DNA of 35,577 nucleotides. Origin: a virus. Its lineage: Duplodnaviria > Heunggongvirae > Uroviricota > Caudoviricetes. Positions 4,477 through 18,986 of this stretch are shown piece by piece. The notes beneath the pieces are model-generated. The model was not told the origin of the DNA, did not search any database, and saw only the letters and a program-made list of their open reading frames with translations. The stretch lies in IMG/VR virus record IMGVR_UViG_2778261575_000001, one strand, 5' to 3'. The stretch's first letter is position 1. The number at the start of each line of letters is the position of its first letter. The translations under genes and the position numbers were made by a program.

Positions 4477-5527
4477 TTATCTTGCCTAACTCGATGATCT
4501 TTAAGAACTGCTCATTTGTGAGTTTAAAGTGACTCCATCGGAATGCACGCGAACCATTTAGCCCCACATGATCTATTAAAATAGCACGATTGGGTCTCTT
4601 TGGCAAAGACAGATTGTATGTGAATCTTATAATGAAAGGGTATCGACGTTCTTTATAGATTTTTCTGAGTTCATCTTCAGAAAATACGCTAAAACGAATA
4701 CAATAGTCTACAAAACTATCTTCGCTTAAAAATTCAGAAATATTTTTTACGCTCTCAACTACACATAATGTACTGGCTACAGAACGATAGCGAGCTGGCC
4801 CTTTTTTGTCTCCGGTTCTATAGATGACAATGATATCTCCTCTTTTCATTCCCATCACAGAACGCATTCCACATATGTAAATTTTATGAATGCTGTTAGC
4901 ATGGGATATATCTTTGACAATATCTGGTGATTCATTTACAAGTTTTGAATCAGGGAATAGTCTAGTGTGATATTCGGGATAAATCGCCAGTAAATATTTG
5001 TTGGCTCTTGATGTCATTATTCGAGGGTAATCTAATAAAATATCACCATAAGGCTCATGCAAAGACCTCGCATATACAAACTCTTTCCCGTTATGTGTTT
5101 CTTTTTCACCATGAATGTAAAATCCGTACGTTTGGAAAAGTTTTATTAGATGGACGTGTTTGTCGAAAACAGTAACATAAATATCATCAGATTTTGATGA
5201 AAATGCATGGTCAAACGCTTTTTTTAGAAATCGTTGTCCGCGAAGGGTGCCTTTAGATTCAAATTTGAATGTTCCTATCTTTAGATGACGTCCTGGTGGG
5301 AGCGCTGGATTAATGTCATTTGCATCATCATTTTCTTTTAGATACATAAAACCTTCGATTTTATGCTTGTCATCATAGAGCACATAAGCTGATTCTCCTT
5401 CTCTGGCTTTTTTTTCTAACCAAAGAGGAAACTCTTTATAATCTTTTTTTAAAGAGTCAAAAAATGGGTCATTGTGATCAAAATCAGAGAATTTCTCATA
5501 TTTTAAAGTATCCATTAAGTTCTCCAT
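4454..5527 (-). CDS. GNAT-like acyltransferase fused to a PUA-like (ASCH-type) domain, candidate effector of an immunity-region module
   Basis: 357-aa ORF with verified ATG and TAA. N-terminal half has a GNAT-like core (...IYVTVFDKHVHLIKLFQTYGF...); C-terminal half has an ASCH-like start (KYLLAIYPEYHTRLFPDSK) followed by GDIIVIYRTG. Domain calls are by eye. Confidence 0.6.
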   Translation of the reverse strand: MENLMDTLKYEKFSDFDHNDPFFDSLKKDYKEFPLWLEKKAREGESAYVLYDDKHKIEGFMYLKENDDANDINPALPPGRHLKIGTFKFESKGTLRGQRFLKKAFDHAFSSKSDDIYVTVFDKHVHLIKLFQTYGFYIHGEKETHNGKEFVYARSLHEPYGDILLDYPRIMTSRANKYLLAIYPEYHTRLFPDSKLVNESPDIVKDISHANSIHKIYICGMRSVMGMKRGDIIVIYRTGDKKGPARYRSVASTLCVVESVKNISEFLSEDSFVDYCIRFSVFSEDELRKIYKERRYPFIIRFTYNLSLPKRPNRAILIDHVGLNGSRAFRWSHFKLTNEQFLKIIELGKINESFIIH

Positions 5528-5595
5528 TCTAAAATGAATAATTAAGTTGTTTTACTGAATGAGCACAATGCCCGGTTGATAATTTTTAATTGGTA

Positions 5596-6285
5596 CTATC
5601 CATGCTTCCTATACGTCTGCGGCATGCTCCCAATAACTTTCCCGAAGATAAACACCCGGTTCATCTCGTCTTTCTCGATTGGGTCCCACGGTGAGTAGCT
5701 CTTGTTATCAGAGATAACCAGCAGTTTATCCTTCATCATTTGCAGGCGCTTTACATGGGCTGTGTCGTCGTACAGAAACGCATAGATACCATCACCGTCG
5801 AAAGATTTAACCGTGATATCAACGAACAGCAGATCACCAGGTTCAATCGTTCCTGACATGCTGTCACCGCGTACGTTAATGATGCGGATATTTTCTGCCT
5901 TCCTGCCATCGAACATGTGACGAGCATCGTCAAACGAGTACTCAACCGAGCGTAGGACTTCTACAAACTCACGGTTGATGACACCCGGCCCGGCACTCAC
6001 TTCTATATCAAGAACGTCAATCTTAAAGTATTTGGAATGGCTGACAGTTGGTTGTATTGGTTGCACTGTACTGTCTGACATATTTCCAACGCCAGAAGAT
6101 AACCATTCTGCGCGCACACCCAAAGCGTTCGCGATCTCCACGATTTTAGTTGTTTGATTAGCTTTTCCTGTTTCGATTTTCTGAATAGCAGCTTGGCTAA
6201 CCCCGACCAAATCCCCAAGCGCCTTTTGTGTAAGGCCTCGCGCTAATCTGGCTTCTTTAAGTCTTTCTGAGAGTGTTGTTTTCAT
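5596..6285 (-). CDS. cI: cI-like prophage repressor (HTH_XRE + S24 LexA-like peptidase domain)
   Basis: 229-aa ORF with an N-terminal HTH (LTQKALGDLVGVSQAAIQKIETGK) and C-terminal S24 motifs (VRGDSMSGTIEPGDLLFVD ... VKRL); sits between the OL-like and OR-like repeat regions; ATG at 6285 has no SD, suggesting a leaderless mRNA. Confidence 0.85.
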   Translation of the reverse strand: MKTTLSERLKEARLARGLTQKALGDLVGVSQAAIQKIETGKANQTTKIVEIANALGVRAEWLSSGVGNMSDSTVQPIQPTVSHSKYFKIDVLDIEVSAGPGVINREFVEVLRSVEYSFDDARHMFDGRKAENIRIINVRGDSMSGTIEPGDLLFVDITVKSFDGDGIYAFLYDDTAHVKRLQMMKDKLLVISDNKSYSPWDPIEKDEMNRVFIFGKVIGSMPQTYRKHG

Positions 6286-6389
6286 AGTTCAAATGTACAA
6301 CCAAGGTTTTATTCCATCAAACGAAAATGGTTGTTGACTAAAAACAACCATAGTTTTAATCTTGATTCAAATTAACCACGGAGGTTGTT
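6286..6389. promoter_or_regulatory. OR region with divergent pRM/pR candidates
   Basis: Perfect 9-bp inverted repeat ATGGTTGTT-N7-AACAACCAT at 6327-6351. Candidate pR: TTGACT (6333-6338), 16-bp spacer, TTTAAT (6355-6360). Candidate leftward pRM (coordinates on plus strand): TTGATG (6315-6320), 17-bp spacer, TACATT (6292-6297), start at the cI ATG. Confidence 0.5.
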
Positions 6390-6620
6390 ATGAACCCAGC
6401 TATTAAAACAGCGATCAATATCGTTGGTTCACAAAAGAAACTGGGCGCTGCTTGCGAAGTTTCACAGCAGGCCGTCTATAAGTGGCTTCACAACAAAGCA
6501 AAGGTATCCCCTGAACATGTCGGCAGCATTGTTACGGCTACTGGTGGAGTAGTGAAGGCACACCAGATTCGCCCGGATCTTCCGAAGTTGTTTCCACACA
6601 CCGAAAAGAACGCAGCTTAA
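6390..6620 (+). CDS. cro: Cro-like repressor (YdaS-type HTH)
   Basis: 76-aa ORF, GGAGG RBS, first gene rightward of OR; resembles YdaS/Cro-type small HTH proteins (..GSQKKLGAACEVSQQAVYKW..). Confidence 0.7.
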   Translation: MNPAIKTAINIVGSQKKLGAACEVSQQAVYKWLHNKAKVSPEHVGSIVTATGGVVKAHQIRPDLPKLFPHTEKNAA

Positions 6621-6632
6621 ATTTCCATTTCA

Positions 6633-6645
6633 CGCTCTTTAACAA
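6633..6645 (+). promoter_or_regulatory. boxA-like element (nutR candidate)
   Basis: CGCTCTTTAACAA, 13 nt after the cro stop, closely matches the boxA consensus (lambda CGCTCTTA; rrn GCTCTTTAACAA); no boxB hairpin found. Confidence 0.35.
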
Positions 6646-6689
6646 TAAGCAATCAACTTAACAGTCAATTCAAACTAAAGGAGTCAATT

Positions 6690-7229
6690 ATGCAACCACT
6701 TACATACCAACAGACTAGCGGATTTAGCCCGACTGCGGTGATAAATCGTTCTCAAACAAAACAGGTGCCAGGCCACGAAAAAATCCGTGATGCCGTCCGC
6801 GCCTGGTCGGCTGAAGATAATCAGGATGTCGTTGCCACACTCATTGTGAATGAGTATCGGGAGCAGGGCGGCGGCACCATCGATTTCCCTGATGATGTCA
6901 GCCGTGCACGCCAGAAGCTGTTCCGCTTCCTCGATAACAAATTCGATTCTGAAAAATACCGAAATAACGTGCGTGAACTGACCCCGGCAATCCTGGCGGT
7001 ACTACCGCTGGAATATCGCGGTTACCTGGTTGAGCAGGATAGCTTCATGGCTAGGTTGGCTGAAATGGAAAAGGAACTCAGTGAGGCAAAACAGGCTGTC
7101 ATTCTCAACGCACCACGCCACCAGAAACTGAAGGAAATTAGTGAAGGTATTGTGTCGATGTTTCGTGTGGACCCAGATCTGGCTGGTCCATTGATGGCGA
7201 TGGTTACTACCATGCTGGGGGCGATATGA
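6690..7229 (+). CDS. YdaT-family regulator (CII-position protein)
   Basis: 179-aa ORF between cro and O with an AAGGAG RBS; shares the remembered YdaT-like pattern (EY.EQGGG ... PAILAVLPLEYR). Confidence 0.5.
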   Translation: MQPLTYQQTSGFSPTAVINRSQTKQVPGHEKIRDAVRAWSAEDNQDVVATLIVNEYREQGGGTIDFPDDVSRARQKLFRFLDNKFDSEKYRNNVRELTPAILAVLPLEYRGYLVEQDSFMARLAEMEKELSEAKQAVILNAPRHQKLKEISEGIVSMFRVDPDLAGPLMAMVTTMLGAI

Positions 7230-8245
7230 CAGGTTCAGAAATGGCGAAAGCCGGTCTGCTGGAACAGAACCGACTTTCAGGTGCAAATCGTAACGCACTC
7301 ATTGCGGAAGGAATTATGGCAAACACTGCTGAGATATTCAATTTTCCAGTGCCGGATGAGGCACAAAAGGAGCGGCGCGTGGCAGATCTCGATGATGGTT
7401 ATACGCGCATTGCAAATGAGTTGCTGGAAGCTGTGATGCTGGCCGGATTAACACAGCACCAGCTTCTGGTCTTCCTGGCTGTCATGCGCAAAACATATGG
7501 CTTTAATAAAAAACTGGATTGGGTGAGCAACGAGCAACTTTCCGAATTGACCGGGATATTGCCGCACAAGTGTTCTGCTGCAAAAAGCGTTCTGGTAAAG
7601 CGTGGGATTCTTATTCAGAGCGGGCGGAATATCGGCATTAATAATGTGGTCAGTGAATGGTCAACATTACCCGAATCAGGTAAGAAAAATAAAGTTTACC
7701 TGAAAGAGGCAAATTTACCTGAATCAGGTAAGAAAAGTTTACCCAAATCAGGTAAAGGCGTTTACCCGAATCAGGTAAACACAAAAGACAAACTAACAAA
7801 AGACAATATAAAACCTTTTTCGTCCGAGAATTCTGGCGAATCCTCTGACCAACCAGAAAACGATCTTCCTGTGGAGAAACCAGATGCTGCAATTCAGAGC
7901 GGCAGCAGGTGGGGGACAGCAGAAGACCTGACCGCCGCAGAGTGGATGTTTGACATGGTGAAGACCATCGCGCCATCAGCCAGAAAACCGAATTTTGCAG
8001 GGTGGGCTAACGATATCCGCCTGATGCGTGAACGTGACGGACGTAACCACCGCGACATGTGCGTGCTGTTCCGCTGGGCATGCCAGGACAACTTCTGGTC
8101 CGGTAACGTGCTAAGTCCGGCCAAACTCCGCGACAAGTGGACCCAACTCGAAATCAACCGTAACAAGCAACAGGCCGGCGTGACAGCCGGAAAATCAAAA
8201 CTCGACCTGACGAACACTGACTGGATTTATGGGGTGGATTTATGA
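7226..8245 (+). CDS. O: replication initiator O
   Basis: 339-aa ORF; N-terminal region (VADLDDGYTRIANELLEA...MRKTYGFNKK...NEQLSELTGI) matches lambda O; contains the iteron array; ATGA overlap with the upstream gene. Confidence 0.9.
   Translation: MTGSEMAKAGLLEQNRLSGANRNALIAEGIMANTAEIFNFPVPDEAQKERRVADLDDGYTRIANELLEAVMLAGLTQHQLLVFLAVMRKTYGFNKKLDWVSNEQLSELTGILPHKCSAAKSVLVKRGILIQSGRNIGINNVVSEWSTLPESGKKNKVYLKEANLPESGKKSLPKSGKGVYPNQVNTKDKLTKDNIKPFSSENSGESSDQPENDLPVEKPDAAIQSGSRWGTAEDLTAAEWMFDMVKTIAPSARKPNFAGWANDIRLMRERDGRNHRDMCVLFRWACQDNFWSGNVLSPAKLRDKWTQLEINRNKQQAGVTAGKSKLDLTNTDWIYGVDL
7667..7779. repeat. ori-lambda-type iterons within O
   Basis: Four ~18-bp repeats TTACC(C/T)(G/A)AATCAGGTAA(G/A) at 7667-7684, 7715-7732, 7739-7756 and 7762-7779, a degenerate copy at ~7696-7709, and an A+T-rich tract at ~7780-7815. 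Confidence 0.75.
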
Positions 8246-8943
8246 AAAACATCGCCGCACAGATGGTTAACTTTGACCGTGAGCAGATGCGCCGGATCGC
8301 CAACAACATGCCGGAACAGTACGACGAAAAGCCGCAGGTACAGCAGGTAGCGCAGATCATCAACGGTGTGTTCAGCCAGTTACTGGCAACTTTCCCGGCG
8401 AGTCTGGCTAACCGGGACCAGAACGAACTGAACGAAATCCGCCGCCAGTGGGTTCTGGCTTTCCGGGAAAACGGGATCACCACAATGGAACAGGTTAACG
8501 CAGGAATGCGCGTAGCCCGTCGGCAGAATCGACCATTCCTGCCATCACCCGGGCAGTTTGTTGCCTGGTGTCGGGAAGAAGCATCCGTTACCGCCGGGCT
8601 GCCAAACGCCAGCGAGCTGGTTGATATGGTTTACGAGTATTGCCGGAAGCGTGGCCTTTATCCGGATGCAGAGTCTTATCCATGGAAATCAAACGCGCAT
8701 TACTGGTTGGTTACCAACCTGTATCAGAACATGCGAGCCAATGCGCTGACTGACGCGGAATTACGGCGCAAGGCTGCCGATGAACTGACCTGTATGACAG
8801 CGCGAATTAACCGTGGTGAGGCTATACCTGAACCAGTAAAACAAATTCCTGTCATGGGCGGTAGACCTCTAAATCGTGCACAGGCTCTGGCGAAGATCGC
8901 AGAAATCAAAGCTAAGTTTGGGCTGAAAGGAGCAAGAGTATGA
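8242..8943 (+). CDS. P: replication protein P (DnaB helicase loader)
   Basis: 233-aa ORF nearly identical to remembered lambda P (MKNIAAQMVNFDREQMRRIANNMPEQYDEKPQ...). Confidence 0.95.
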   Translation: MKNIAAQMVNFDREQMRRIANNMPEQYDEKPQVQQVAQIINGVFSQLLATFPASLANRDQNELNEIRRQWVLAFRENGITTMEQVNAGMRVARRQNRPFLPSPGQFVAWCREEASVTAGLPNASELVDMVYEYCRKRGLYPDAESYPWKSNAHYWLVTNLYQNMRANALTDAELRRKAADELTCMTARINRGEAIPEPVKQIPVMGGRPLNRAQALAKIAEIKAKFGLKGARV

Positions 8944-9242
8944 CGGGCAAAGAGGCAATTATTCATTACCTGGGGACTCATAAGAACTTCTGTGCGCAGG
9001 ACGTTGCCGCGGTAACAGGCGCAACCGTAACCAGCATAAATCAGGCTGCGGCTAAAATGGCGCGGGCAGGAATCCTGGTCGTTGATGGTAAGGTCTGGCG
9101 AACGGTGTATTATCGGTTCGCTACCAGAGAAGAACGGGAAGGAAAGGTGAGCGCGAATTTGATTTTTAAGGAGTGTCGCCAGAGTGCCGCGATGAAACGG
9201 GTATTGAGGGTATATAAAAGAACATCAATGGGTACACAATGA
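8940..9242 (+). CDS. ren: Ren
   Basis: 100-aa ORF matching lambda Ren (MTGKEAIIHYLGTH...VWRTVYYRFATREEREGK...). Confidence 0.85.
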   Translation: MTGKEAIIHYLGTHKNFCAQDVAAVTGATVTSINQAAAKMARAGILVVDGKVWRTVYYRFATREEREGKVSANLIFKECRQSAAMKRVLRVYKRTSMGTQ

Positions 9243-9309
9243 TGAAACAGGTGAGTTGAGTTCAAACTGTAGTACAATTCTCTCCAGTTTGAACAGGAAA
9301 GAATATGCT

Positions 9310-9642
9310 ATGAACCCTTATATTTATCTTGGTGGTGCAATACTTGCAGAGGTCATTGGTACAACCTTAATGAAGTTTTCAGAAGGTTTTACACGGTTAT
9401 GGCCATCTGTTGGTACAATTATTTGTTATTGTGCATCATTCTGGTTATTAGCTCAGACGCTGGCTTATATACCTACAGGGATTGCTTATGCTATCTGGTC
9501 AGGAGTCGGTATTGTCCTGATTAGCTTACTATCATGGGGATTTTTCGGCCAACGGTTGGACCTGCCAGCCATTATAGGCATGATGTTGATTTGTGCCGGT
9601 GTGTTGGTTATTAATTTATTGTCACGAAGCACACCACATTAA
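9310..9642 (+). CDS. emrE: small multidrug resistance efflux transporter EmrE
   Basis: 110 aa from the ATG at 9310 (MNPYIYLGGAILAEVIGTTLMKFSEGFTRLWPSVGTII...) matches E. coli EmrE, a known DLP12 prophage gene; RBS AGGAAAG upstream. Confidence 0.95.
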   Translation: MNPYIYLGGAILAEVIGTTLMKFSEGFTRLWPSVGTIICYCASFWLLAQTLAYIPTGIAYAIWSGVGIVLISLLSWGFFGQRLDLPAIIGMMLICAGVLVINLLSRSTPH

Positions 9643-9897
9643 AAATAATTTATTTTTAAACGACTAAAATATTGAGGTTCGTATATTTGTATGGGCCTCG
9701 TTTTATGCTTTTTGTTAATGTCTTTAGTTTTTATTCATTCTTTTGATCTTTCAAGATTATGGTGTAAGAAAATTGCAATACGATTATTGTTGTATATTCA
9801 AGATAATGTGACCTTAATTGTCTTTTTAAATAAAAATTAAACAAAAATCATATCTCACCACTAAGGTTTATAAAAGCATACTTTAGCAGGTGTCACC

Positions 9898-11424
9898 ATG
9901 AAAAAAGCCATAGCATATATGCGATTTTCATCACCAGGTCAGATGTCTGGTGATTCATTAAACCGCCAGAGAAGGCTTATTACTGAATGGCTAAAGGTAA
10001 ATAGTGATTATTACCTTGATACCGTAACGTATGAAGATTTGGGGTTAAGCGCATTCAATGGAAAGCATGCACAATCAGGAGCTTTTTCGGAATTTTTAGA
10101 TGCTATAGAACATGGTTACATATTGCCAGGGACTACATTGTTAGTTGAAAGTCTGGACAGACTTTCAAGAGAAAAAGTCGGTGAAGCGATTGAGCGTCTG
10201 AAATTGATTTTGAATCACGGTATTGATGTTATAACTCTTTGCGATAATACAGTCTATAATATAGACTCATTGAATGAGCCATATTCATTAATAAAAGCCA
10301 TACTTATAGCACAAAGGGCAAATGAAGAAAGCGAGATAAAGTCAAGTCGGGTTAAATTATCATGGAAGAAAAAACGGCAGGATGCACTGGAATCAGGCAC
10401 GATTATGACGGCGTCTTGTCCGAGATGGCTCTCATTGGATGACAAAAGAACAGCTTTTATTCCACACCCCGACAGGGTGAAAACGATTGAGCTAATTTTT
10501 AAACTCAGGATGGAAAGGCGATCATTGAATGCAATAGCTAAGTATTTAAATGATCATGCTGTAAAAAATTTTTCAGGAAAAGAAAGTGCATGGGGGCCTT
10601 CTGTAATTGAAAAATTATTAGCGAATAAAGCTCTGATAGGTATATGCGTACCTTCATATCGTGCAAGAGGGAAAGGGATAAGTGAAATCGCTGGCTATTA
10701 TCCCAGAGTCATATCAGATGATTTGTTTTACGCTGTACAGGAAATTCGGTTGGCACCTTTTGGTATTAGCAATAGTAGCAAGAATCCTATGCTAATAAAT
10801 CTACTTCGAACAGTTATGAAGTGTGAGGCTTGTGGTAATACCATGATTGTTCATGCGGTATCTGGACGTTTGCATGGCTATTATGTTTGTCCGATGAGAA
10901 GATTACATCGATGTGACAGGCCATCAATAAAAAGAGATTTGGTTGATTATAATATCATTAATGAATTGCTTTTTAATTGTAGCAAAATTCAACCAGTTGA
11001 AAACAAGAAAGATGCTAATGAAACTTTAGAGTTAAAAATTATTGAGCTTCAGATGAAAATTAATAATTTAATCGTTGCATTGTCTGTCGCGCCTGAAGTT
11101 ACCGCTATAGCAGAGAAAATAAGACTATTAGATAAGGAATTACGAAGGGCTTCGGTATCATTAAAAACTTTGAAGAGTAAAGGGGTGAGTTCACTTGGTG
11201 ATTTTCATGCTATTGATTTAACCAGTAAAAATGGGCGAGAGCTATGTCGTACACTTGCCTATAAAATATTCGAAAAAATTATAATTAATACAGATAATAA
11301 AACCTGTGATATCTATTTTATGAATGGCATTGTTTTTAAACACTATCCTTTAATGAAAGTAATATCCGCCCAGCAGGCGATAAGTACTCTTAAATATATG
11401 GTTGATGGTGAGATTTATTTTTGA
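9898..11424 (+). CDS. ybcK: large serine recombinase (YbcK-like)
   Basis: 508-aa ORF with a resolvase-type N-terminal catalytic domain (AIAYMRFSSPGQ...SLNRQ); size and neighbourhood (after emrE) match DLP12 ybcK; A+T-rich. Confidence 0.8.
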   Translation: MKKAIAYMRFSSPGQMSGDSLNRQRRLITEWLKVNSDYYLDTVTYEDLGLSAFNGKHAQSGAFSEFLDAIEHGYILPGTTLLVESLDRLSREKVGEAIERLKLILNHGIDVITLCDNTVYNIDSLNEPYSLIKAILIAQRANEESEIKSSRVKLSWKKKRQDALESGTIMTASCPRWLSLDDKRTAFIPHPDRVKTIELIFKLRMERRSLNAIAKYLNDHAVKNFSGKESAWGPSVIEKLLANKALIGICVPSYRARGKGISEIAGYYPRVISDDLFYAVQEIRLAPFGISNSSKNPMLINLLRTVMKCEACGNTMIVHAVSGRLHGYYVCPMRRLHRCDRPSIKRDLVDYNIINELLFNCSKIQPVENKKDANETLELKIIELQMKINNLIVALSVAPEVTAIAEKIRLLDKELRRASVSLKTLKSKGVSSLGDFHAIDLTSKNGRELCRTLAYKIFEKIIINTDNKTCDIYFMNGIVFKHYPLMKVISAQQAISTLKYMVDGEIYF

Positions 11425-11748
11425 GTAATAATCACTTTTTCAACCGTGCTATGGTATGAAAGTAAAGTAACTAATATGATATTAACTATCTTGAACGAAG
11501 CGCCCTGAGCTATAGTTTTACTATAGGCACTGTCACTGGATGTTGGCATTCTTGCTCTAGTAGCTCAACAATACCCAATCACAAAACAATTCACTGATAA
11601 CAAACTTTGTGCACGTGCTTGGTTATGGCGAACAGGTGATGTTAACCTCTTGCCAGAATGCCACTCCACTTCATTAAGTATCTGAGCACCGAGAGGCTGG
11701 TCACGCCCCCATTAAAAATAATTTCTTTTGAATCGAGTGAAATAGGTT

Positions 11749-11775
11749 AGCCCGCATAAGTGCGGGCTGCTTTTT
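11749..11775. terminator. hairpin terminator between the ybcK block and the esterase gene, possibly bidirectional
   Basis: Stem AGCCCGCA(11749-11756)/TGCGGGCT(11761-11768), loop TAAG, then TTTTT (11771-11775) on the plus strand; overlaps the stop of the minus-strand esterase gene. Confidence 0.5.
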
Positions 11776-12817
11776 ACAGGTCAGCGTTTGTTTTTTGTTG
11801 TTGGGTAGCGGTTTTTATGGGGGTTCCCAGGTTTTTAGTAAACCACTCAACAACTCTGTTTATAATAATTGGCTGATACCATGTATTATCGCCATGCTCG
11901 GCCCCTTCTACCAGCACGTACTCAGCGTTATCACCGTTCTTCTTCAACATCCTGAATAGTTTGGCGCTTTGCTCAGGTGAAACCAGAGTGTCTTTGCTAC
12001 CATGCATAATAAGAAATGGGGGTTTTACTCCTTTCATATGTCCGATTGGACTGGCGTTTAGCGCTTTTTCTTTTGACGCTGTGATGGGGGCTCCCGCAAA
12101 ATTTCTGAATGCAGGGCCATTGATCATTAAGGCTTCGGTTACGGCAGGAGAGCGATGAACCTCCTGCACTGATTCAGGGAACCCCTCGCCAATATTCAAC
12201 AAGTCAGAAATCCCATAAAGTGTGGCAACTGCCTGAACATCTGAGGATTGCTGAAGAAAGTCACCTTTATCAAAGGTTTTGTCACCATTTGTAGTTCCCA
12301 TCATCTGGGCAAGCCATCCACCGGCAGAGTCACCCAGAACTCCGATTCTTTGAGGATCAATCCCATAATTGCTGGCATGCTCTCTCAGGTAACGTATTGC
12401 AGCTTTTCCATCCTCAACTGGTGCTGGAAATGTATCAGGAATTGTTCTGTATTCTACAGCGGCCACAACAAAACCAGCTTCTGCCAGAGCCATTCTCATT
12501 TCAATAAATTTGTCATGTTCAGAAGACATGAATCCGCCGCCGGGATAATAAATAATGGCTGGTTTTAAATCATTTGTTCGCGGGACAAGAACTGACATGT
12601 GAAGCTGTCTGACAGAACGAGTTCCTTTTATCTGGGAATAAACAACATCACCAATGAGATCGACCTGGTTTCTGGTCGGTGAAACACTAATGATATCTGC
12701 ACCCGGGGTGTAACCAGGAAGATTAGTCTGGACAGGTGTTGCACAACTCCCGACCGACATGGCCATTGACATACCATACAATAGTGTTGCAGATGATAAT
12801 ATCTTGTTAATTTTCAT
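11774..12817 (-). CDS. secreted or lipoprotein alpha/beta-hydrolase (family IV esterase/lipase-like)
   Basis: 347-aa ORF with an N-terminal signal peptide and possible lipobox (MSVGSC), an HGGG-type oxyanion motif (YYPGGGF), a GDSAGG nucleophile elbow and a C-terminal His (GAEHGD). Confidence 0.7.
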   Translation of the reverse strand: MKINKILSSATLLYGMSMAMSVGSCATPVQTNLPGYTPGADIISVSPTRNQVDLIGDVVYSQIKGTRSVRQLHMSVLVPRTNDLKPAIIYYPGGGFMSSEHDKFIEMRMALAEAGFVVAAVEYRTIPDTFPAPVEDGKAAIRYLREHASNYGIDPQRIGVLGDSAGGWLAQMMGTTNGDKTFDKGDFLQQSSDVQAVATLYGISDLLNIGEGFPESVQEVHRSPAVTEALMINGPAFRNFAGAPITASKEKALNASPIGHMKGVKPPFLIMHGSKDTLVSPEQSAKLFRMLKKNGDNAEYVLVEGAEHGDNTWYQPIIINRVVEWFTKNLGTPIKTATQQQKTNADL

Positions 12818-13205
12818 GTTTTACATGCCTTGACTTATCGGATGAAATTCTCTTACTGAATTTAACGGCAGTTTAATAGCCGTACAACTCGTGGTAGCCA
12901 GGGAAATATCCCAGTCGTGGTTAAGGTTGTACTTGACGGCTATTATTTCAACAATGCTTAAAGTGAGAGCTTAAGGTTATGCGTATGTTTTACAGTCCGA
13001 GTAGATTCTGACCAATAGCTTCTTTGTATAATTCTGTCAGAAATAAATCTTGGCTTGCATGAAGTTTGAGACCTTATCTTGTTTGATTATGAATAATCAA
13101 TTCGCCATAATTGTATCACCGGAGCCTGAACAACTCCGGTGACTTCTGCGCTAAACGGGGACGTTTATGCGCACACACAATCCAAACTCTCTTCTCCCTT
13201 CACAG

Positions 13206-13232
13206 ATGCAGAAATGCACCTGCGTTTTTTTG
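13206..13232 (+). terminator. weak tR2-like terminator upstream of the nin region
   Basis: Short stem GCAG/CTGC followed by TTTTTTT (13224-13230); the stem is weak. Confidence 0.25.
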
Positions 13233-13264
13233 CATCCAGCGTCTGACCTCTGTGGAGGTGAAGC

Positions 13265-13720
13265 GTGAACCTACCACAAGATGGCATCAAACTGCATCGC
13301 GGTAACTTCATCGCTATCGGCCAGCAGATCCAGCCTTATCTGGAGAACGGAAAATGCTTTCGCATGGTGCTTAAACCGTGGCGTGAGAAACGCAGTCTTT
13401 CCCAGAATGCACTCAGCCACATGTGGTACAGCGAAATCAGTGAATACCTCATCAGCAGGGGGAAATCGTTCGCTACCGCAGCATGGGTAAAAGATGCTCT
13501 CAAACACACATACCTCGGTTATGAAACCAAGGACCTGGTTGATGTCGTAACCGGCGAAATCACTACTATCCAGTCGTTACGCCATACCTCCGATCTCGAT
13601 ACCGGAGAGATGTATGTCTTCCTGTGTAAGGTTGAAGCCTGGGCGGTGAATATTGGCTGCCACCTGACTATTCCGCAGAGCTGCGAGTTCCAGCTGCTGC
13701 GCGACAAGCAGGAGGCGTAA
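13265..13720 (+). CDS. ninB: NinB-family protein (YbcN-like)
   Basis: 151-aa ORF with GTG start after a GGAGG SD; matches the remembered DLP12 YbcN sequence ([15 protein letters not shown]...). Confidence 0.75.
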
Positions 13721-18810: not shown

Positions 18811-18986
18811 CGCGGTTTTTCACTATTTATGAAAATTTTTCAGGGAAAATCGTGTCGGTACTTCTCGAATATAACTTTTTGTTTTTTTTAATATTGCATC
18901 CGTAAAGGTCCGACATGAAAGTGTCCGAAAATGCCTTTTTCTGGCGTTTTCATGTCGGGCCTTGTATTTGATAATGGGTTGTTTTC

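What the first reader, a model, noticed from the sequence alone, without database searches (positions are those of the whole stretch)
9243..11760. A+T-rich cargo insert between ren and the nin region: emrE efflux pump plus a large serine recombinase
Seen: an intact emrE (110 aa) followed, after a very A+T-rich spacer, by a 508-aa resolvase-domain serine recombinase. Both are on the phage forward strand but have a base composition unlike the replication genes. Established: the same emrE-ybcK pair is part of the defective DLP12 prophage of E. coli K-12; here it sits in an otherwise complete-looking lambdoid genome. Inference: a mobile drug-efflux determinant carried by a potentially inducible phage, and the recombinase may mark an independently mobile sub-element.
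Basis: partly seen in the sequence, partly recalled or inferred. Interest (0 to 1): 0.45.

Follow-up and report, generated by a model that had tools for sequence, protein, structure and literature searches.

The report
Known emrE–recombinase cargo in lambdoid phage

Summary
emrE (9310-9642, 110 aa) and ybcK (9898-11424, 508 aa) are intact, on the + strand, and A+T-rich (34-41% G+C against 50-51% in the flanks).

The insert is larger than reported. It runs from about 9207 (inside the last codons of ren) to 13081. It also holds ylcJ, a rha gene fragment and a minus-strand alpha/beta-hydrolase.

The window is a whole E. coli contig. Its early half is 99.3% identical to phage PhiR47_2, and the cargo is 99.7% identical to phages Perceval, 4A7 and Lambda_4C10. 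EmrE on such phages and Perceval's activity are published, so inducibility and integrity are settled.

The slot between ren and ninB is hypervariable. Other phages carry PD-lambda-1, Rha, an acyltransferase or an inverse autotransporter there. The cargo is a patchwork of separate cassettes joined by ordinary phage mosaicism.

The idea of a recombinase-driven sub-element is only weakly supported. A 38-nt flanking repeat exists in this lineage alone. No excised form occurs in 5426 genomes, and ybcK never occurs without emrE.

YbcK is nevertheless a complete large serine recombinase under strong purifying selection (dN/dS about 0.08). Its relatives sit as lone, mostly A+T-rich genes in cargo positions of unrelated prophages. 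Its substrate is unknown.

The parts
8940..9242 (+). ren. Its last roughly 10 codons (from about 9207-9216) belong to the cargo block and differ from the ren tails of phages with other cargo.
   Evidence: Alignment A1; blastn breakpoints at 9206/9215; PHROG 142 Ren-like.
9207..13081 (.). Whole occupant of the hypervariable ren-ninB cargo slot (3.9 kb, 38.6% G+C).
   Evidence: Breakpoints against five phages with other cargo; G+C by module.
9233..9650 (+). emrE cassette. The CDS is 9310-9642 (110 aa, SMR proton-coupled efflux pump).
   Evidence: This exact stretch is the only part shared (92%) with the chromosomal fliE-yedK island. Pfam PF00893. One substitution relative to K-12 EmrE.
9634..9671 (+). 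Copy 1 of a 38-nt imperfect direct repeat: the emrE stop codon plus an A+T palindrome, TTAAAAATAAtTTATTTTTAA.
   Evidence: longest two-copy direct repeat in the window; score 46 against a null maximum of 30.
9673..9700 (+). Terminator-like hairpin after emrE; it overlaps the ylcJ start.
9691..9840 (+). ylcJ, a 49-aa hydrophobic ORF. It is truncated or frame-shifted in the O157 and Turner lineages.
   Evidence: Pfam PF23688, E 2e-29; lineage comparison.
9898..11424 (+). ybcK, an intact large serine recombinase. Resolvase domain 4-161 with R9/S11/Q15 and ESLDRLSRE; recombinase domain 191-284; Zn ribbon 302-357 with C309/C312/C331/C339; long helices 373-427.
   Evidence: dN/dS about 0.08.
11425..11500 (+). 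3' flank that travels with ybcK. It is present, at about 65% identity, even in the divergent K-12-type allele. Function unknown.
   Evidence: Alignments A3 and A5; 80 IMG/VR loci.
11548..11702 (+). Internal fragment of a rha (antirepressor, P22AR C-terminal) gene; a pseudogene relic of an earlier occupant of the slot.
   Evidence: 77-82% identity to the rha genes of PhiR5_1 and PhiR26_1; a longer version is annotated in NCTC9100.
11707..11744 (+). Copy 2 of the 38-nt repeat (32 of 38 identical). It looks like the relic of an emrE 3' end.
   Evidence: Absent from the K-12, Turner, O157 and NCTC9100 lineages.
11748..11769 (.). G+C-rich terminator hairpin between the ybcK side and the convergent hydrolase gene.
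   Evidence: ST131-type hydrolase contexts start matching just after it, at 11770.
11774..12817 (-). Alpha/beta-hydrolase (BD-FAE / esterase family, 347 aa) with a lipoprotein-like signal sequence. It is a separate cassette.
   Evidence: Pfam PF20434, E 5e-45; PHROG 3341 esterase. In about 470 genomes it is paired with an inverse autotransporter instead of emrE-ybcK.
13082..13264 (+). Conserved leader of the nin region, not cargo. It holds a TTGATT-N-AATCAA palindrome, a promoter-like site, hairpins and the ylcH ORF (13167-13268).
   Evidence: Invariant in all phages whatever their cargo; ylcH by synteny with LF82 and K-12.
13265..13720 (+). ybcN (NinB-like); the first backbone gene after the slot.

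Best explanation
The region is an array of passenger ('moron') genes filling the hypervariable slot between ren and ninB of a lambda/phage-21-like temperate phage of the Perceval / PhiR47_2 type.

The array consists of separately inherited cassettes:
1. emrE with its own terminator.
2. ylcJ-ybcK plus about 75 nt of 3' flank.
3. A relic of a rha gene and of an emrE tail.
4. A convergent esterase gene.

How it was built (inferred from the junctions): recombination between lambdoid phages, homologous in the conserved ren and nin-leader flanks and illegitimate or microhomology-mediated inside the slot. YbcK-catalysed insertion is not needed to explain it.

How it works:
- EmrE is a functional proton-coupled small multidrug exporter. 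The sequence is shown to be intact. Expression in the lysogen rests on the literature. It is carried to new hosts by lysogeny.
- YbcK is a complete, selected large serine recombinase. This is shown by domain content, predicted fold and dN/dS. Its DNA substrate and role are unknown. Most likely it acts on a site not yet recognised. It may be a secondary or former integrase-type enzyme, or a recombinase riding in phage cargo positions.
For: Cargo slot:
- Syntenic phages carry PD-lambda-1 plus Rha, Rha alone, acyltransferase plus lipoprotein, or inverse autotransporter plus hydrolase between the same boundaries, 9206/9215 and 13082.
- Foreign composition: 38.6% G+C against 50-51%.

Cassette structure:
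- emrE occurs alone (9233-9650) in the fliE-yedK island.
- The hydrolase occurs without emrE and ybcK in about 470 genomes.
- A rha fragment lies at 11548-11702.
- The O157 type is explained by a microhomology (CTATC) deletion, read from the flanking sequences.
- IS2 insertions (my reading of the inserted sequence) account for two odd junctions.

Active phage:
- 99.3-99.7% identity to isolated phages.
- Perceval is active, and EmrE is induced in DMEM medium (PMC9928086).
- EmrE was reported in two lambda genomes from infant gut (PMC6969025).

YbcK is functional:
- All invariant residues are kept.
- The AlphaFold2 model has pLDDT 79.5, and its top Foldseek hits are full-length serine integrase-att complexes (E 1e-18).
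- dN/dS is 0.07-0.08 at dS 0.12-0.18.
Against: - A significant 38-nt direct repeat brackets ylcJ-ybcK-rha' in this lineage. It could be read as an attL/attR pair.
- The recombinase gene, with at most about 60-400 nt of flank (in Ewingella plus a small 67-aa ORF), is the only thing shared between very different prophage contexts in Atlantibacter, Pantoea and Ewingella. It is an A+T-rich island in most of the closer homolog loci, though not in the Pantoea, Pluralibacter or plasmid loci. This hints at some autonomous mobility.
- No experiment here shows emrE expression or YbcK activity.
- Strong purifying selection on YbcK means it has a role that this explanation leaves unnamed.
Confidence: 0.75

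Rival explanations
1. ylcJ-ybcK (with the rha relic) is a small integrative element mobilised by YbcK itself. The two 38-nt repeats are its attL and attR, and the emrE 3' end is the target site.
For: - The repeat is the longest two-copy direct repeat in the 35.6-kb window and lies exactly at two module junctions.
- It contains a 21-nt palindrome, as serine-recombinase sites often do.
- The fliE-yedK island shows emrE directly followed by ybcL with no ybcK, which is formally an 'empty site'.
- The recombinase genes are A+T-rich islands with unrelated flanks in several genera.
Against: - The second repeat copy is absent from the K-12, Turner, O157 and NCTC9100 lineages, which also carry ylcJ-ybcK.
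- No excised emrE|hydrolase form occurs in 5426 genomes.
- ybcK is never found without emrE in E. coli.
- The 'element' would contain a fragment of a phage gene.
- Copy 2 looks like a degraded emrE tail followed by its own terminator, that is, a recombination scar.
- The fliE island has two other backbone deletions, so loss of ybcK there is probably just a third.
Confidence: 0.07
2. YbcK is a second integrase for the whole phage. It would use an attP next to ybcK, giving the phage an alternative chromosomal attachment site besides the tyrosine-integrase site at icd.
For: - In 11 fetched loci (about 8 distinct prophages, six named genera plus one unclassified Enterobacteriaceae genome) the relative is the last or nearly last phage gene at the tail-fibre end. 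It lies next to host DNA or, in Yersinia and one Ewingella locus, next to another phage-like element. Host neighbours include ssrA at 540 nt, lepA, and yedK at 240-270 nt in two genomes.
- PHROG 95 'integrase' matches at E 2e-119.
- The predicted fold matches phage serine integrases.
- About 75 nt of 3' flank co-travels with the gene.
Against: - Every E. coli ybcK context examined is internal to a prophage with the same left neighbour (emrE). Every right-hand junction leads into phage or cargo DNA, never host DNA.
- Prophages carrying it sit at tyrosine-integrase sites (icd, argU).
- At the yedK site, E. coli carries a tyrosine-integrase remnant (intG') at the opposite, fliE end of a prophage relic in the same orientation. 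The terminal recombinase in the relatives may therefore be end-of-prophage cargo rather than the integrase.
Confidence: 0.06
3. YbcK provides a host- or phage-beneficial DNA rearrangement, for example an inversion or excision switch that affects phage defence or stress tolerance, as the Pin-type recombinases of cryptic prophages do.
For: - Strong purifying selection holds in defective prophages as well.
- The gene is present in 1424 of 5426 genomes.
- Overexpression raises and deletion lowers sabinene tolerance (PMC7181518).
- PinQ and PinR of cryptic prophages block phage adsorption by DNA inversion (PMC12529663; bioRxiv 10.1101/2025.03.28.646004).
- The relatives lie where pin genes lie, after the tail-fibre assembly genes. 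The position of pin genes is from my own knowledge.
Against: - No inverted-repeat-bounded segment lies near ybcK. No long inverted repeats in the window involve the region, apart from one 33-nt, 73%-complementary pair (13-45 and 11640-11672) with an arm in the rha fragment.
- No orientation polymorphism of neighbouring cassettes was seen.
- No PADLOC defence model matches.
- Large serine recombinases normally integrate and excise rather than invert.
Confidence: 0.08
4. ybcK is a dead fossil of an integration module, picked up by accident and not yet decayed.
For: - It is not needed for the known lysogeny pathway.
- Neighbouring genes are truncated.
- ylcJ next to it is decaying in some lineages.
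Against: - dN/dS is about 0.08 across three allele lineages.
- The full-length ORF is kept in 1398 genomes.
- Relatives of 505-522 aa are conserved across Enterobacterales at 41-61% identity, with all catalytic and zinc-binding residues.
Confidence: 0.04

Closest known systems
emrE-ylcJ-ybcK block of the cryptic prophage DLP12 of E. coli K-12
   Same: Same genes, order and strand, downstream of ren. 96% nucleotide identity over window 9029-11463.
   Different: - K-12 has IS3 in ren and carries ybcL-ybcM after ybcK instead of the rha relic plus hydrolase.
- The sequence diverges at the ybcK stop codon.
- DLP12 is defective and sits at argU. This phage type sits at icd and is intact.
Escherichia phages Perceval (LF82 prophage), 4A7, Lambda_4C10, 1W, 3W, D2, PhiR47_2
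   Same: 99.7% identity over the whole cargo region 8900-13400 for seven of the eight records (phage D2: 99.2% over 96%), with the same annotation: EmrE, large serine recombinase/YbcK, alpha/beta-hydrolase. Early region 99.3% identical to PhiR47_2.
   Different: The window's Q/lysis and structural modules are phage-21-like and differ from LF82's quuD-porin arrangement. This is an ordinary mosaic difference outside the finding.
Moron / defence hot spot between ren (or P) and ninB in lambdoid phages (occupants such as PD-lambda-1, Rha)
   Same: Same conserved boundaries; variable, compositionally foreign content with its own terminators.
   Different: Here the occupants are an efflux pump, a recombinase and an esterase. 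None matches a PADLOC defence model.
Phage large serine integrases (PhiC31, Bxb1, A118/LI, TP901-1)
   Same: Domain order resolvase, recombinase, zinc ribbon plus long helices. Catalytic Ser motif present. Best structural matches are full-length integrase-att complexes.
   Different: - Only 14-20% sequence identity.
- No att sites identified.
- The gene is internal to a phage that already has a tyrosine integrase.
- No directionality factor recognised.
Pin-type small serine invertases of cryptic prophages (PinE, PinQ, PinR)
   Same: Serine-recombinase catalytic domain. Prophage-borne and not the integrase. Relatives of YbcK lie after tail-fibre assembly genes, as pin genes do. The position of pin genes is from my own knowledge.
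   Different: YbcK is 508 aa with recombinase and zinc-ribbon domains rather than about 190 aa with a C-terminal HTH. No invertible segment is adjacent.
Large serine recombinase transposases TnpX / TndX of Tn4451 / Tn5397
   Same: A large serine recombinase that moves a small cargo-bearing element; this is a model for the 'mobile sub-element' idea. A conjugative-transposon recombinase catalytic domain (3g13) is among the fold matches.
   Different: Those elements have defined ends with a GA dinucleotide and form circles (my own knowledge). No such ends, circles or multiple insertion sites were found here.

Membership tests
SMR family, EmrE | About 110 aa with four TM helices and a match to the Multi_Drug_Res profile | tested here: met
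   110 aa; PF00893 E 2e-35 covering residues 3-94; PHROG 1395.
SMR family, EmrE | Essential membrane-embedded Glu14 | tested here: met
   'AILAEVIG' has E14. There is one conservative change (I100V) relative to K-12 EmrE. The essentiality of E14 is established knowledge.
SMR family, EmrE | Confers tolerance to ethidium, methyl viologen or quaternary ammonium compounds | not testable with these tools
   Inferred from 99% identity to the characterised protein.
Large serine recombinase | N-terminal resolvase domain with the catalytic Ser and conserved Arg/Gln/Asp residues | tested here: met
   PF00239 E 8e-19. R9, S11, Q15 and E84-S85-L86-D87-R88-L89-S90-R91 are invariant in the family alignment and kept here.
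Large serine recombinase | Recombinase domain plus zinc ribbon with four Cys | tested here: met
   PF07508 E 2e-14 and PF13408 E 5e-8. C309, C312, C331 and C339 are invariant.
Large serine recombinase | Coiled-coil motif emerging from the zinc-ribbon domain; overall fold of an integrase | tested here: met
   AlphaFold2 model with helices 373-397 and 402-427. Foldseek top hits are 9dxd/9dxf/9dxh serine integrase-att complexes (E 1e-18 to 4e-17), PhiC31, Bxb1 and 4kis. Low TM-scores reflect flexible domain arrangement.
Large serine recombinase | Cognate att sites with a central crossover dinucleotide; demonstrated recombination | tested here: inconclusive
   The only candidate is the 38-nt repeat pair, which is lineage-specific. 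No conserved flank motif is shared across genera. Activity cannot be tested here.
Phage integrase (functional role) | Gene adjacent to attP, so at a prophage end next to host DNA, and the only integrase of the phage | tested here: not met
   In this phage type ybcK is internal, between ren and ninB. A tyrosine integrase and excisionase lie at the icd end. Relatives are terminal, but the far ends of those prophages could not be read.
Lambdoid moron / cargo slot | Lies between conserved backbone genes, with different occupants in syntenic phages | tested here: met
   At least six different occupant sets share the same boundaries.
Lambdoid moron / cargo slot | Foreign composition and its own transcription signals | tested here: met
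   38.6% G+C against 50-51%. Terminator-like hairpins at 9673-9700 and 11748-11769. Promoters are not resolved by the consensus scan. Expression of emrE in the lysogen rests on PMC9928086.
Recombinase-mobilised integrative element | Flanking att repeats present wherever the element is present | tested here: not met
   The repeat is significant only in the window lineage (p<0.005). It is not significant in the K-12, Turner, O157, NCTC9100 or PhiR34_1 lineages.
Recombinase-mobilised integrative element | Occupied and empty versions of the same site; insertion at several sites | tested here: not met
   No emrE|hydrolase junction in 5426 genomes. ybcK always follows emrE. The only ybcK-less emrE context is a multiply deleted prophage relic.
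Recombinase-mobilised integrative element | The same unit in unrelated contexts in other genomes | tested here: inconclusive
   Units with different flanks:
- Pantoea: 1.8-kb unit, 94% identical.
- Atlantibacter: 1.6-kb unit, 76% identical.
- Ewingella: 2.0-kb unit in three prophages, 87-93% identical.
The unit edges coincide with ORF or promoter edges, as in ordinary module exchange.

The most novel reading that the evidence does not exclude
YbcK-type large serine recombinases could form a distinct clade of single-gene modules that move between the cargo positions of unrelated temperate phages of Enterobacterales and are kept by selection. Those positions are the replication-nin slot and the end beyond the tail-fibre genes, often beside umuDC, SRAP, porin, autotransporter or efflux cargo. 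They might act as secondary integrases or as recombinases that capture or exchange cargo cassettes. That would be a serine-recombinase counterpart of an integron integrase inside phage genomes.
Probability: 0.12. Interest if true: 0.6.

Novelty: already known. Interest (0 to 1): 0.22.

Why it matters
As found, it matters little. EmrE on active lambda-like gut phages and the DLP12 emrE-ybcK pair are both documented. emrE is already present in about two thirds of E. coli genomes.

The useful outcomes are a corrected anatomy and one open question:
- The slot is a patchwork of independent cassettes, with exact boundaries.
- The phage-type emrE allele count (1409 genomes at 95% identity or more) nearly equals the ybcK count (1424), and ybcK always follows emrE.
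- Most E. coli instead carry a second emrE allele in a stripped-down prophage relic.
- YbcK is a complete large serine recombinase under strong purifying selection, present in a quarter of E. coli genomes, with no known substrate. If its site were found, it would be a native E. coli serine recombinase of possible use as a tool. It might also explain how cargo regions of phages are reshuffled.

Tried and rejected
1. att-site reading of the 38-nt repeat. Rejected as a general feature, because only this lineage has the second copy and no excised form exists.
2. Clustering of junctions 9-75 nt after the ybcK stop as a sign of a recombination site. Rejected. The classes reduce to a divergent K-12-type allele, a CTATC-microhomology deletion (O157 type) and an IS2 insertion.
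3. A conserved motif in the flanks of recombinase genes across genera. None was found.
4. A ylcJ homolog upstream of the recombinase in other genera. None was found.
5. The fliE-yedK island as a pre-insertion 'empty site', or as the product of integration through a site at the ren/emrE boundary. Rejected. The island is flanked by an intG' tyrosine-integrase remnant and shows two further backbone deletions.
6. Invertible-segment idea. No inverted repeats bound any cassette, and no orientation polymorphism was seen.
7. Defence-system membership. No PADLOC hit.
8. Known RNA families in 8900-13400. None at E 0.1 or better.
9. PDB sequence searches with YbcK or the family profile found nothing. The fold search was needed.
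10. The IMG/VR scan returned only E. coli-type copies, so it did not widen the family contexts.
11. The far ends of the relatives' prophages could not be fetched, so whether those phages also have a tyrosine integrase remains open.
Full report
**What is there**

The window is an entire 35,577-bp contig of an E. coli assembly (NLMS01000043.1 of GCA_002229025.1). It encodes a lambdoid prophage from just after int and xis to the tail genes.

Between ren (8940-9242) and ybcN/ninB (13265-13720) the ORF map shows:
- emrE (ATG at 9310, to 9642, 110 aa)
- the 49-aa ylcJ ORF (9691-9840)
- ybcK (9898-11424, 508 aa)
- a 347-aa ORF on the minus strand (11774-12817)

Pfam assigns these to the SMR family, YlcJ, Resolvase + Recombinase + Zn_ribbon_recom, and the BD-FAE / alpha-beta-hydrolase family.

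G+C content is 40.8% for emrE, 35.8% for ybcK and 44.6% for the hydrolase. It is 50.8% for O-P-ren and 49.8% for the nin genes.

**Boundaries**

I aligned the window with K-12 DLP12 and with phages that carry other genes in the same place.
- The left edge of the variable region is at 9206-9215, inside the last roughly ten codons of ren.
- The right edge is at 13082, the start of a nin-region leader that is invariant whatever the cargo.
- That leader holds a TTGATT-N-AATCAA palindrome, a promoter-like site, hairpins and ylcH (13167-13268).

The same slot holds other cargo in other genomes:
- PD-lambda-1 plus Rha (PhiR26_1)
- Rha plus small ORFs (PhiR5_1)
- an acyltransferase plus a lipoprotein (PhiR30_1)
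- an inverse autotransporter plus the same hydrolase, in about 470 mostly human-derived genomes

It is a classical cargo hot spot.

**The cargo is a patchwork**

1. emrE cassette.
   - The stretch 9233-9650, and nothing else, is shared at 92% identity with a chromosomal island between fliE and yedK.
   - That island reads emrE-ybcL-ybcM-porin.
   - It is a stripped-down DLP12-like prophage. It keeps pieces of ylcH and quuD and an intG' integrase remnant, but has lost ren, ylcJ-ybcK and the ybcN-quuD backbone.
2. ylcJ-ybcK.
   - It travels with about 75 nt of 3' flank.
   - K-12-type phages diverge from the window at the ybcK stop codon. They keep a 65%-identical version of that flank before ybcL-ybcM begins.
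3. rha fragment.
   - Window 11548-11702 is an internal fragment of a rha antirepressor gene.
   - In the commonest arrangement (40 of 80 IMG/VR loci, and NCTC9100), ybcK is followed by a longer rha 3' portion and the gene that normally follows rha.
   - The emrE-ylcJ-ybcK block therefore once displaced the left part of a Rha-type slot.
4. Hydrolase cassette.
   - It starts at about 11703.
   - Among the downstream variants, the O157 type is a CTATC-microhomology deletion. Two aberrant junctions elsewhere are IS2 insertions, as I read the inserted sequence.

These are the marks of homologous exchange in conserved flanks plus illegitimate joins inside the slot.

**The repeat**

A 38-nt imperfect direct repeat (32 of 38 identical) lies at 9634-9671 (emrE stop codon and downstream) and at 11707-11744.
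- Each copy is followed by a terminator-like hairpin.
- It is the longest two-copy direct repeat in the window and is well above shuffled controls.
- It would bracket ylcJ-ybcK-rha' like a pair of att sites.

Against that reading:
- The second copy is absent from the K-12, Turner, O157 and NCTC9100 lineages, which also carry ylcJ-ybcK.
- It looks like a degraded emrE tail.
- All 172 genomes that have it also have the rha fragment. No genome shows the predicted excision product.

I read it as a scar showing that the hydrolase cassette once lay directly behind an emrE gene.

**Is the phage active, and are the genes intact?**

- The cargo region is 99.7% identical to seven phage records, including Perceval, 4A7, Lambda_4C10, 1W, 3W and PhiR47_2; phage D2 matches at 99.2% over 96%.
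- The early half of the window is 99.3% identical to PhiR47_2. The late half is 98% identical to phage-21-like phages.
- Perceval is an active prophage of strain LF82, and EmrE is listed among its morons induced in DMEM medium (PMC9928086).
- EmrE in two lambda genomes from infant-gut temperate coliphages was already noted (PMC6969025).
- EmrE differs from the K-12 protein by I100V and keeps Glu14.

The finding is, however, already in the literature and in database annotation.

**Distribution**

| Feature | Complete E. coli genomes (of 5426) |
|---|---|
| ybcK | 1424 |
| emrE, any allele | 3693 |
| emrE, phage-type allele (95% identity or more) | 1409 |
| emrE, 90-95% band (fliE-island-type allele in every row listed) as best match | 2283 |

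- Phage-type emrE and ybcK have nearly equal genome counts.
- In 80 IMG/VR prophage contigs and in all sampled genomes, ybcK always follows emrE.

**YbcK itself**

- It keeps all residues that are invariant in an alignment of 16 relatives at 41-61% identity: R9, S11, Q15, the ESLDRLSRE motif and four zinc-ribbon cysteines.
- An AlphaFold2 model (mean pLDDT 79.5) has the expected domains and two long helices after the zinc ribbon.
- Its best structural matches are full-length serine integrases bound to att DNA, PhiC31, Bxb1 and the Listeria integrase (E 1e-18 to 1e-10).
- PHROGs files it under 'integrase'. No defence-system model matches.
- Between three allele lineages, dN/dS is 0.07-0.08 at dS 0.12-0.18. 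The protein is under selection and is not a fossil.
- ylcJ, by contrast, is truncated or frame-shifted in two lineages.
- The only experimental data I found are that ybcK overexpression raises and deletion lowers sabinene tolerance (PMC7181518).

**Relatives**

Full-length relatives occur in Atlantibacter, Yersinia, Erwinia, Ewingella, Citrobacter, Pantoea and others.

Replication-nin position, as in E. coli:
- In Atlantibacter sp. RC6 the relative lies between O-P (plus a C5 methylase) and NinG-Q.
- In 'Ca. Pantoea alvi' it lies between P and a truncated second P.

Terminal position, at the tail-fibre end (11 fetched loci, about 8 distinct prophages):
- The relative is the last or nearly last phage gene beyond the tail-fibre and tail-fibre-assembly genes.
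- It lies next to host DNA (ssrA at 540 nt, lepA, yedK at 240-270 nt in two genomes) or, in Yersinia and one Ewingella locus, next to another phage-like element.
- It often sits beside other cargo such as umuDC, an autotransporter or a Lom-like protein.

Evidence that the gene moves as its own module:
- In most of the closer homolog loci the recombinase gene is an A+T-rich island (37-44% G+C against 50-60%). The Pantoea, Pluralibacter and plasmid loci are not A+T-rich.
- Between different contexts, only the ORF with at most about 60-400 nt of flank (in Ewingella plus a small 67-aa ORF) is shared: 76% in Atlantibacter, 94% in Pantoea, and 87-93% among three different Ewingella prophages.

Either a serine integrase next to its attP or a terminal moron would show this pattern. 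E. coli has a tyrosine-integrase relic at the opposite end of the yedK-site prophage, in the same orientation. That tilts me slightly towards 'cargo'. The far ends of the relatives' prophages could not be read.

**Verdict**

The finding is real, correctly identified and already known.
- Its anatomy is best explained by ordinary lambdoid mosaicism in a cargo hot spot.
- The suggestion that the recombinase defines a self-mobile sub-element is not borne out in E. coli. The cross-genus data show only that the recombinase gene is exchanged as its own module.
- The one open point is what a conserved, selected large serine recombinase does in phage cargo positions.

Noticed in passing
L094/L095 (E. 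coli C288, ERP001) 6882-11019; matches window 9233-9650: Many E. coli carry their only emrE (92% allele) in a fliE-yedK island, emrE-ybcL-ybcM-porin. The island is a DLP12-like prophage reduced to its cargo genes, bounded by an intG' integrase remnant. The 90-95% band that this allele falls in is the best emrE match in 2283 of 5426 complete genomes. emrE is therefore not chiefly a 'DLP12 gene'.
   Followed up: yes
window 11774-12817 (-); L096/L097: The esterase cassette is more often (about 470 genomes, several from human urine or clinical sources) paired with a 1421-aa inverse autotransporter directly after P. Those contexts have no ren, emrE or ybcK.
   Followed up: partly
L017 (Enterobacteriaceae bacterium G50) 7328-11527; L020 (Citrobacter pasteurii) 9107-11527: A YbcK relative lies 240-270 nt downstream of the yedK ortholog in two genomes. 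In G50 the yedE-yedF-yedK flank shows it is the chromosomal site where E. coli keeps its emrE island; in C. pasteurii the yedK ortholog follows purB. In G50 and in Ewingella the recombinase is next to umuDC.
   Followed up: partly
L031 ('Ca. Pantoea alvi') 9256-12751: The recombinase unit lies antisense between a complete P gene and a truncated second P copy (residues 77-223, 75% DNA identity). This looks like a junction between two lambdoid segments.
   Followed up: partly
window 13083-13264: The nin-region leader is invariant in all compared phages. It has a palindrome TTGATT-N6-8-AATCAA whose arms co-vary between phages, a promoter-like TTGATT-17-CATAAT, a CCGGAG...CTCCGG hairpin and a terminator-like hairpin at 13204-13227 before ylcH/ninB.
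   Followed up: no
window 7662-7783: Three 27-nt direct repeats spaced 47-48 nt apart inside the O gene. I take them to be the replication-origin iterons.
   Followed up: no
window 18905-18963: An inverted repeat with 27-nt arms (81% complementary) and a 5-nt spacer, just upstream of the small terminase gene. It may belong to the cos region.
   Followed up: no
window 9691-9840 and homologous positions in L004, L098: ylcJ is a 49-aa ORF in the window, K-12 and NCTC9100. It is shortened to 40 aa in O157:H7 and frame-disrupted in phage Turner, while ybcK next to it stays intact.
   Followed up: partly
L105 (GCA_030898125.1) 4560-8920: A variant has ybcK, then the hydrolase, then a complete Rha gene (Bro-N + P22_AR_C) and two more ORFs before ylcH-ninB. 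The hydrolase cassette can therefore sit in front of an intact Rha-type cassette.
   Followed up: no
L024 (Pantoea sp. C3 plasmid pC3_2), L027 (Enterobacter ludwigii plasmid): More distant YbcK relatives (42-43% identity) are on large plasmids, so the wider family is not restricted to prophages.
   Followed up: no
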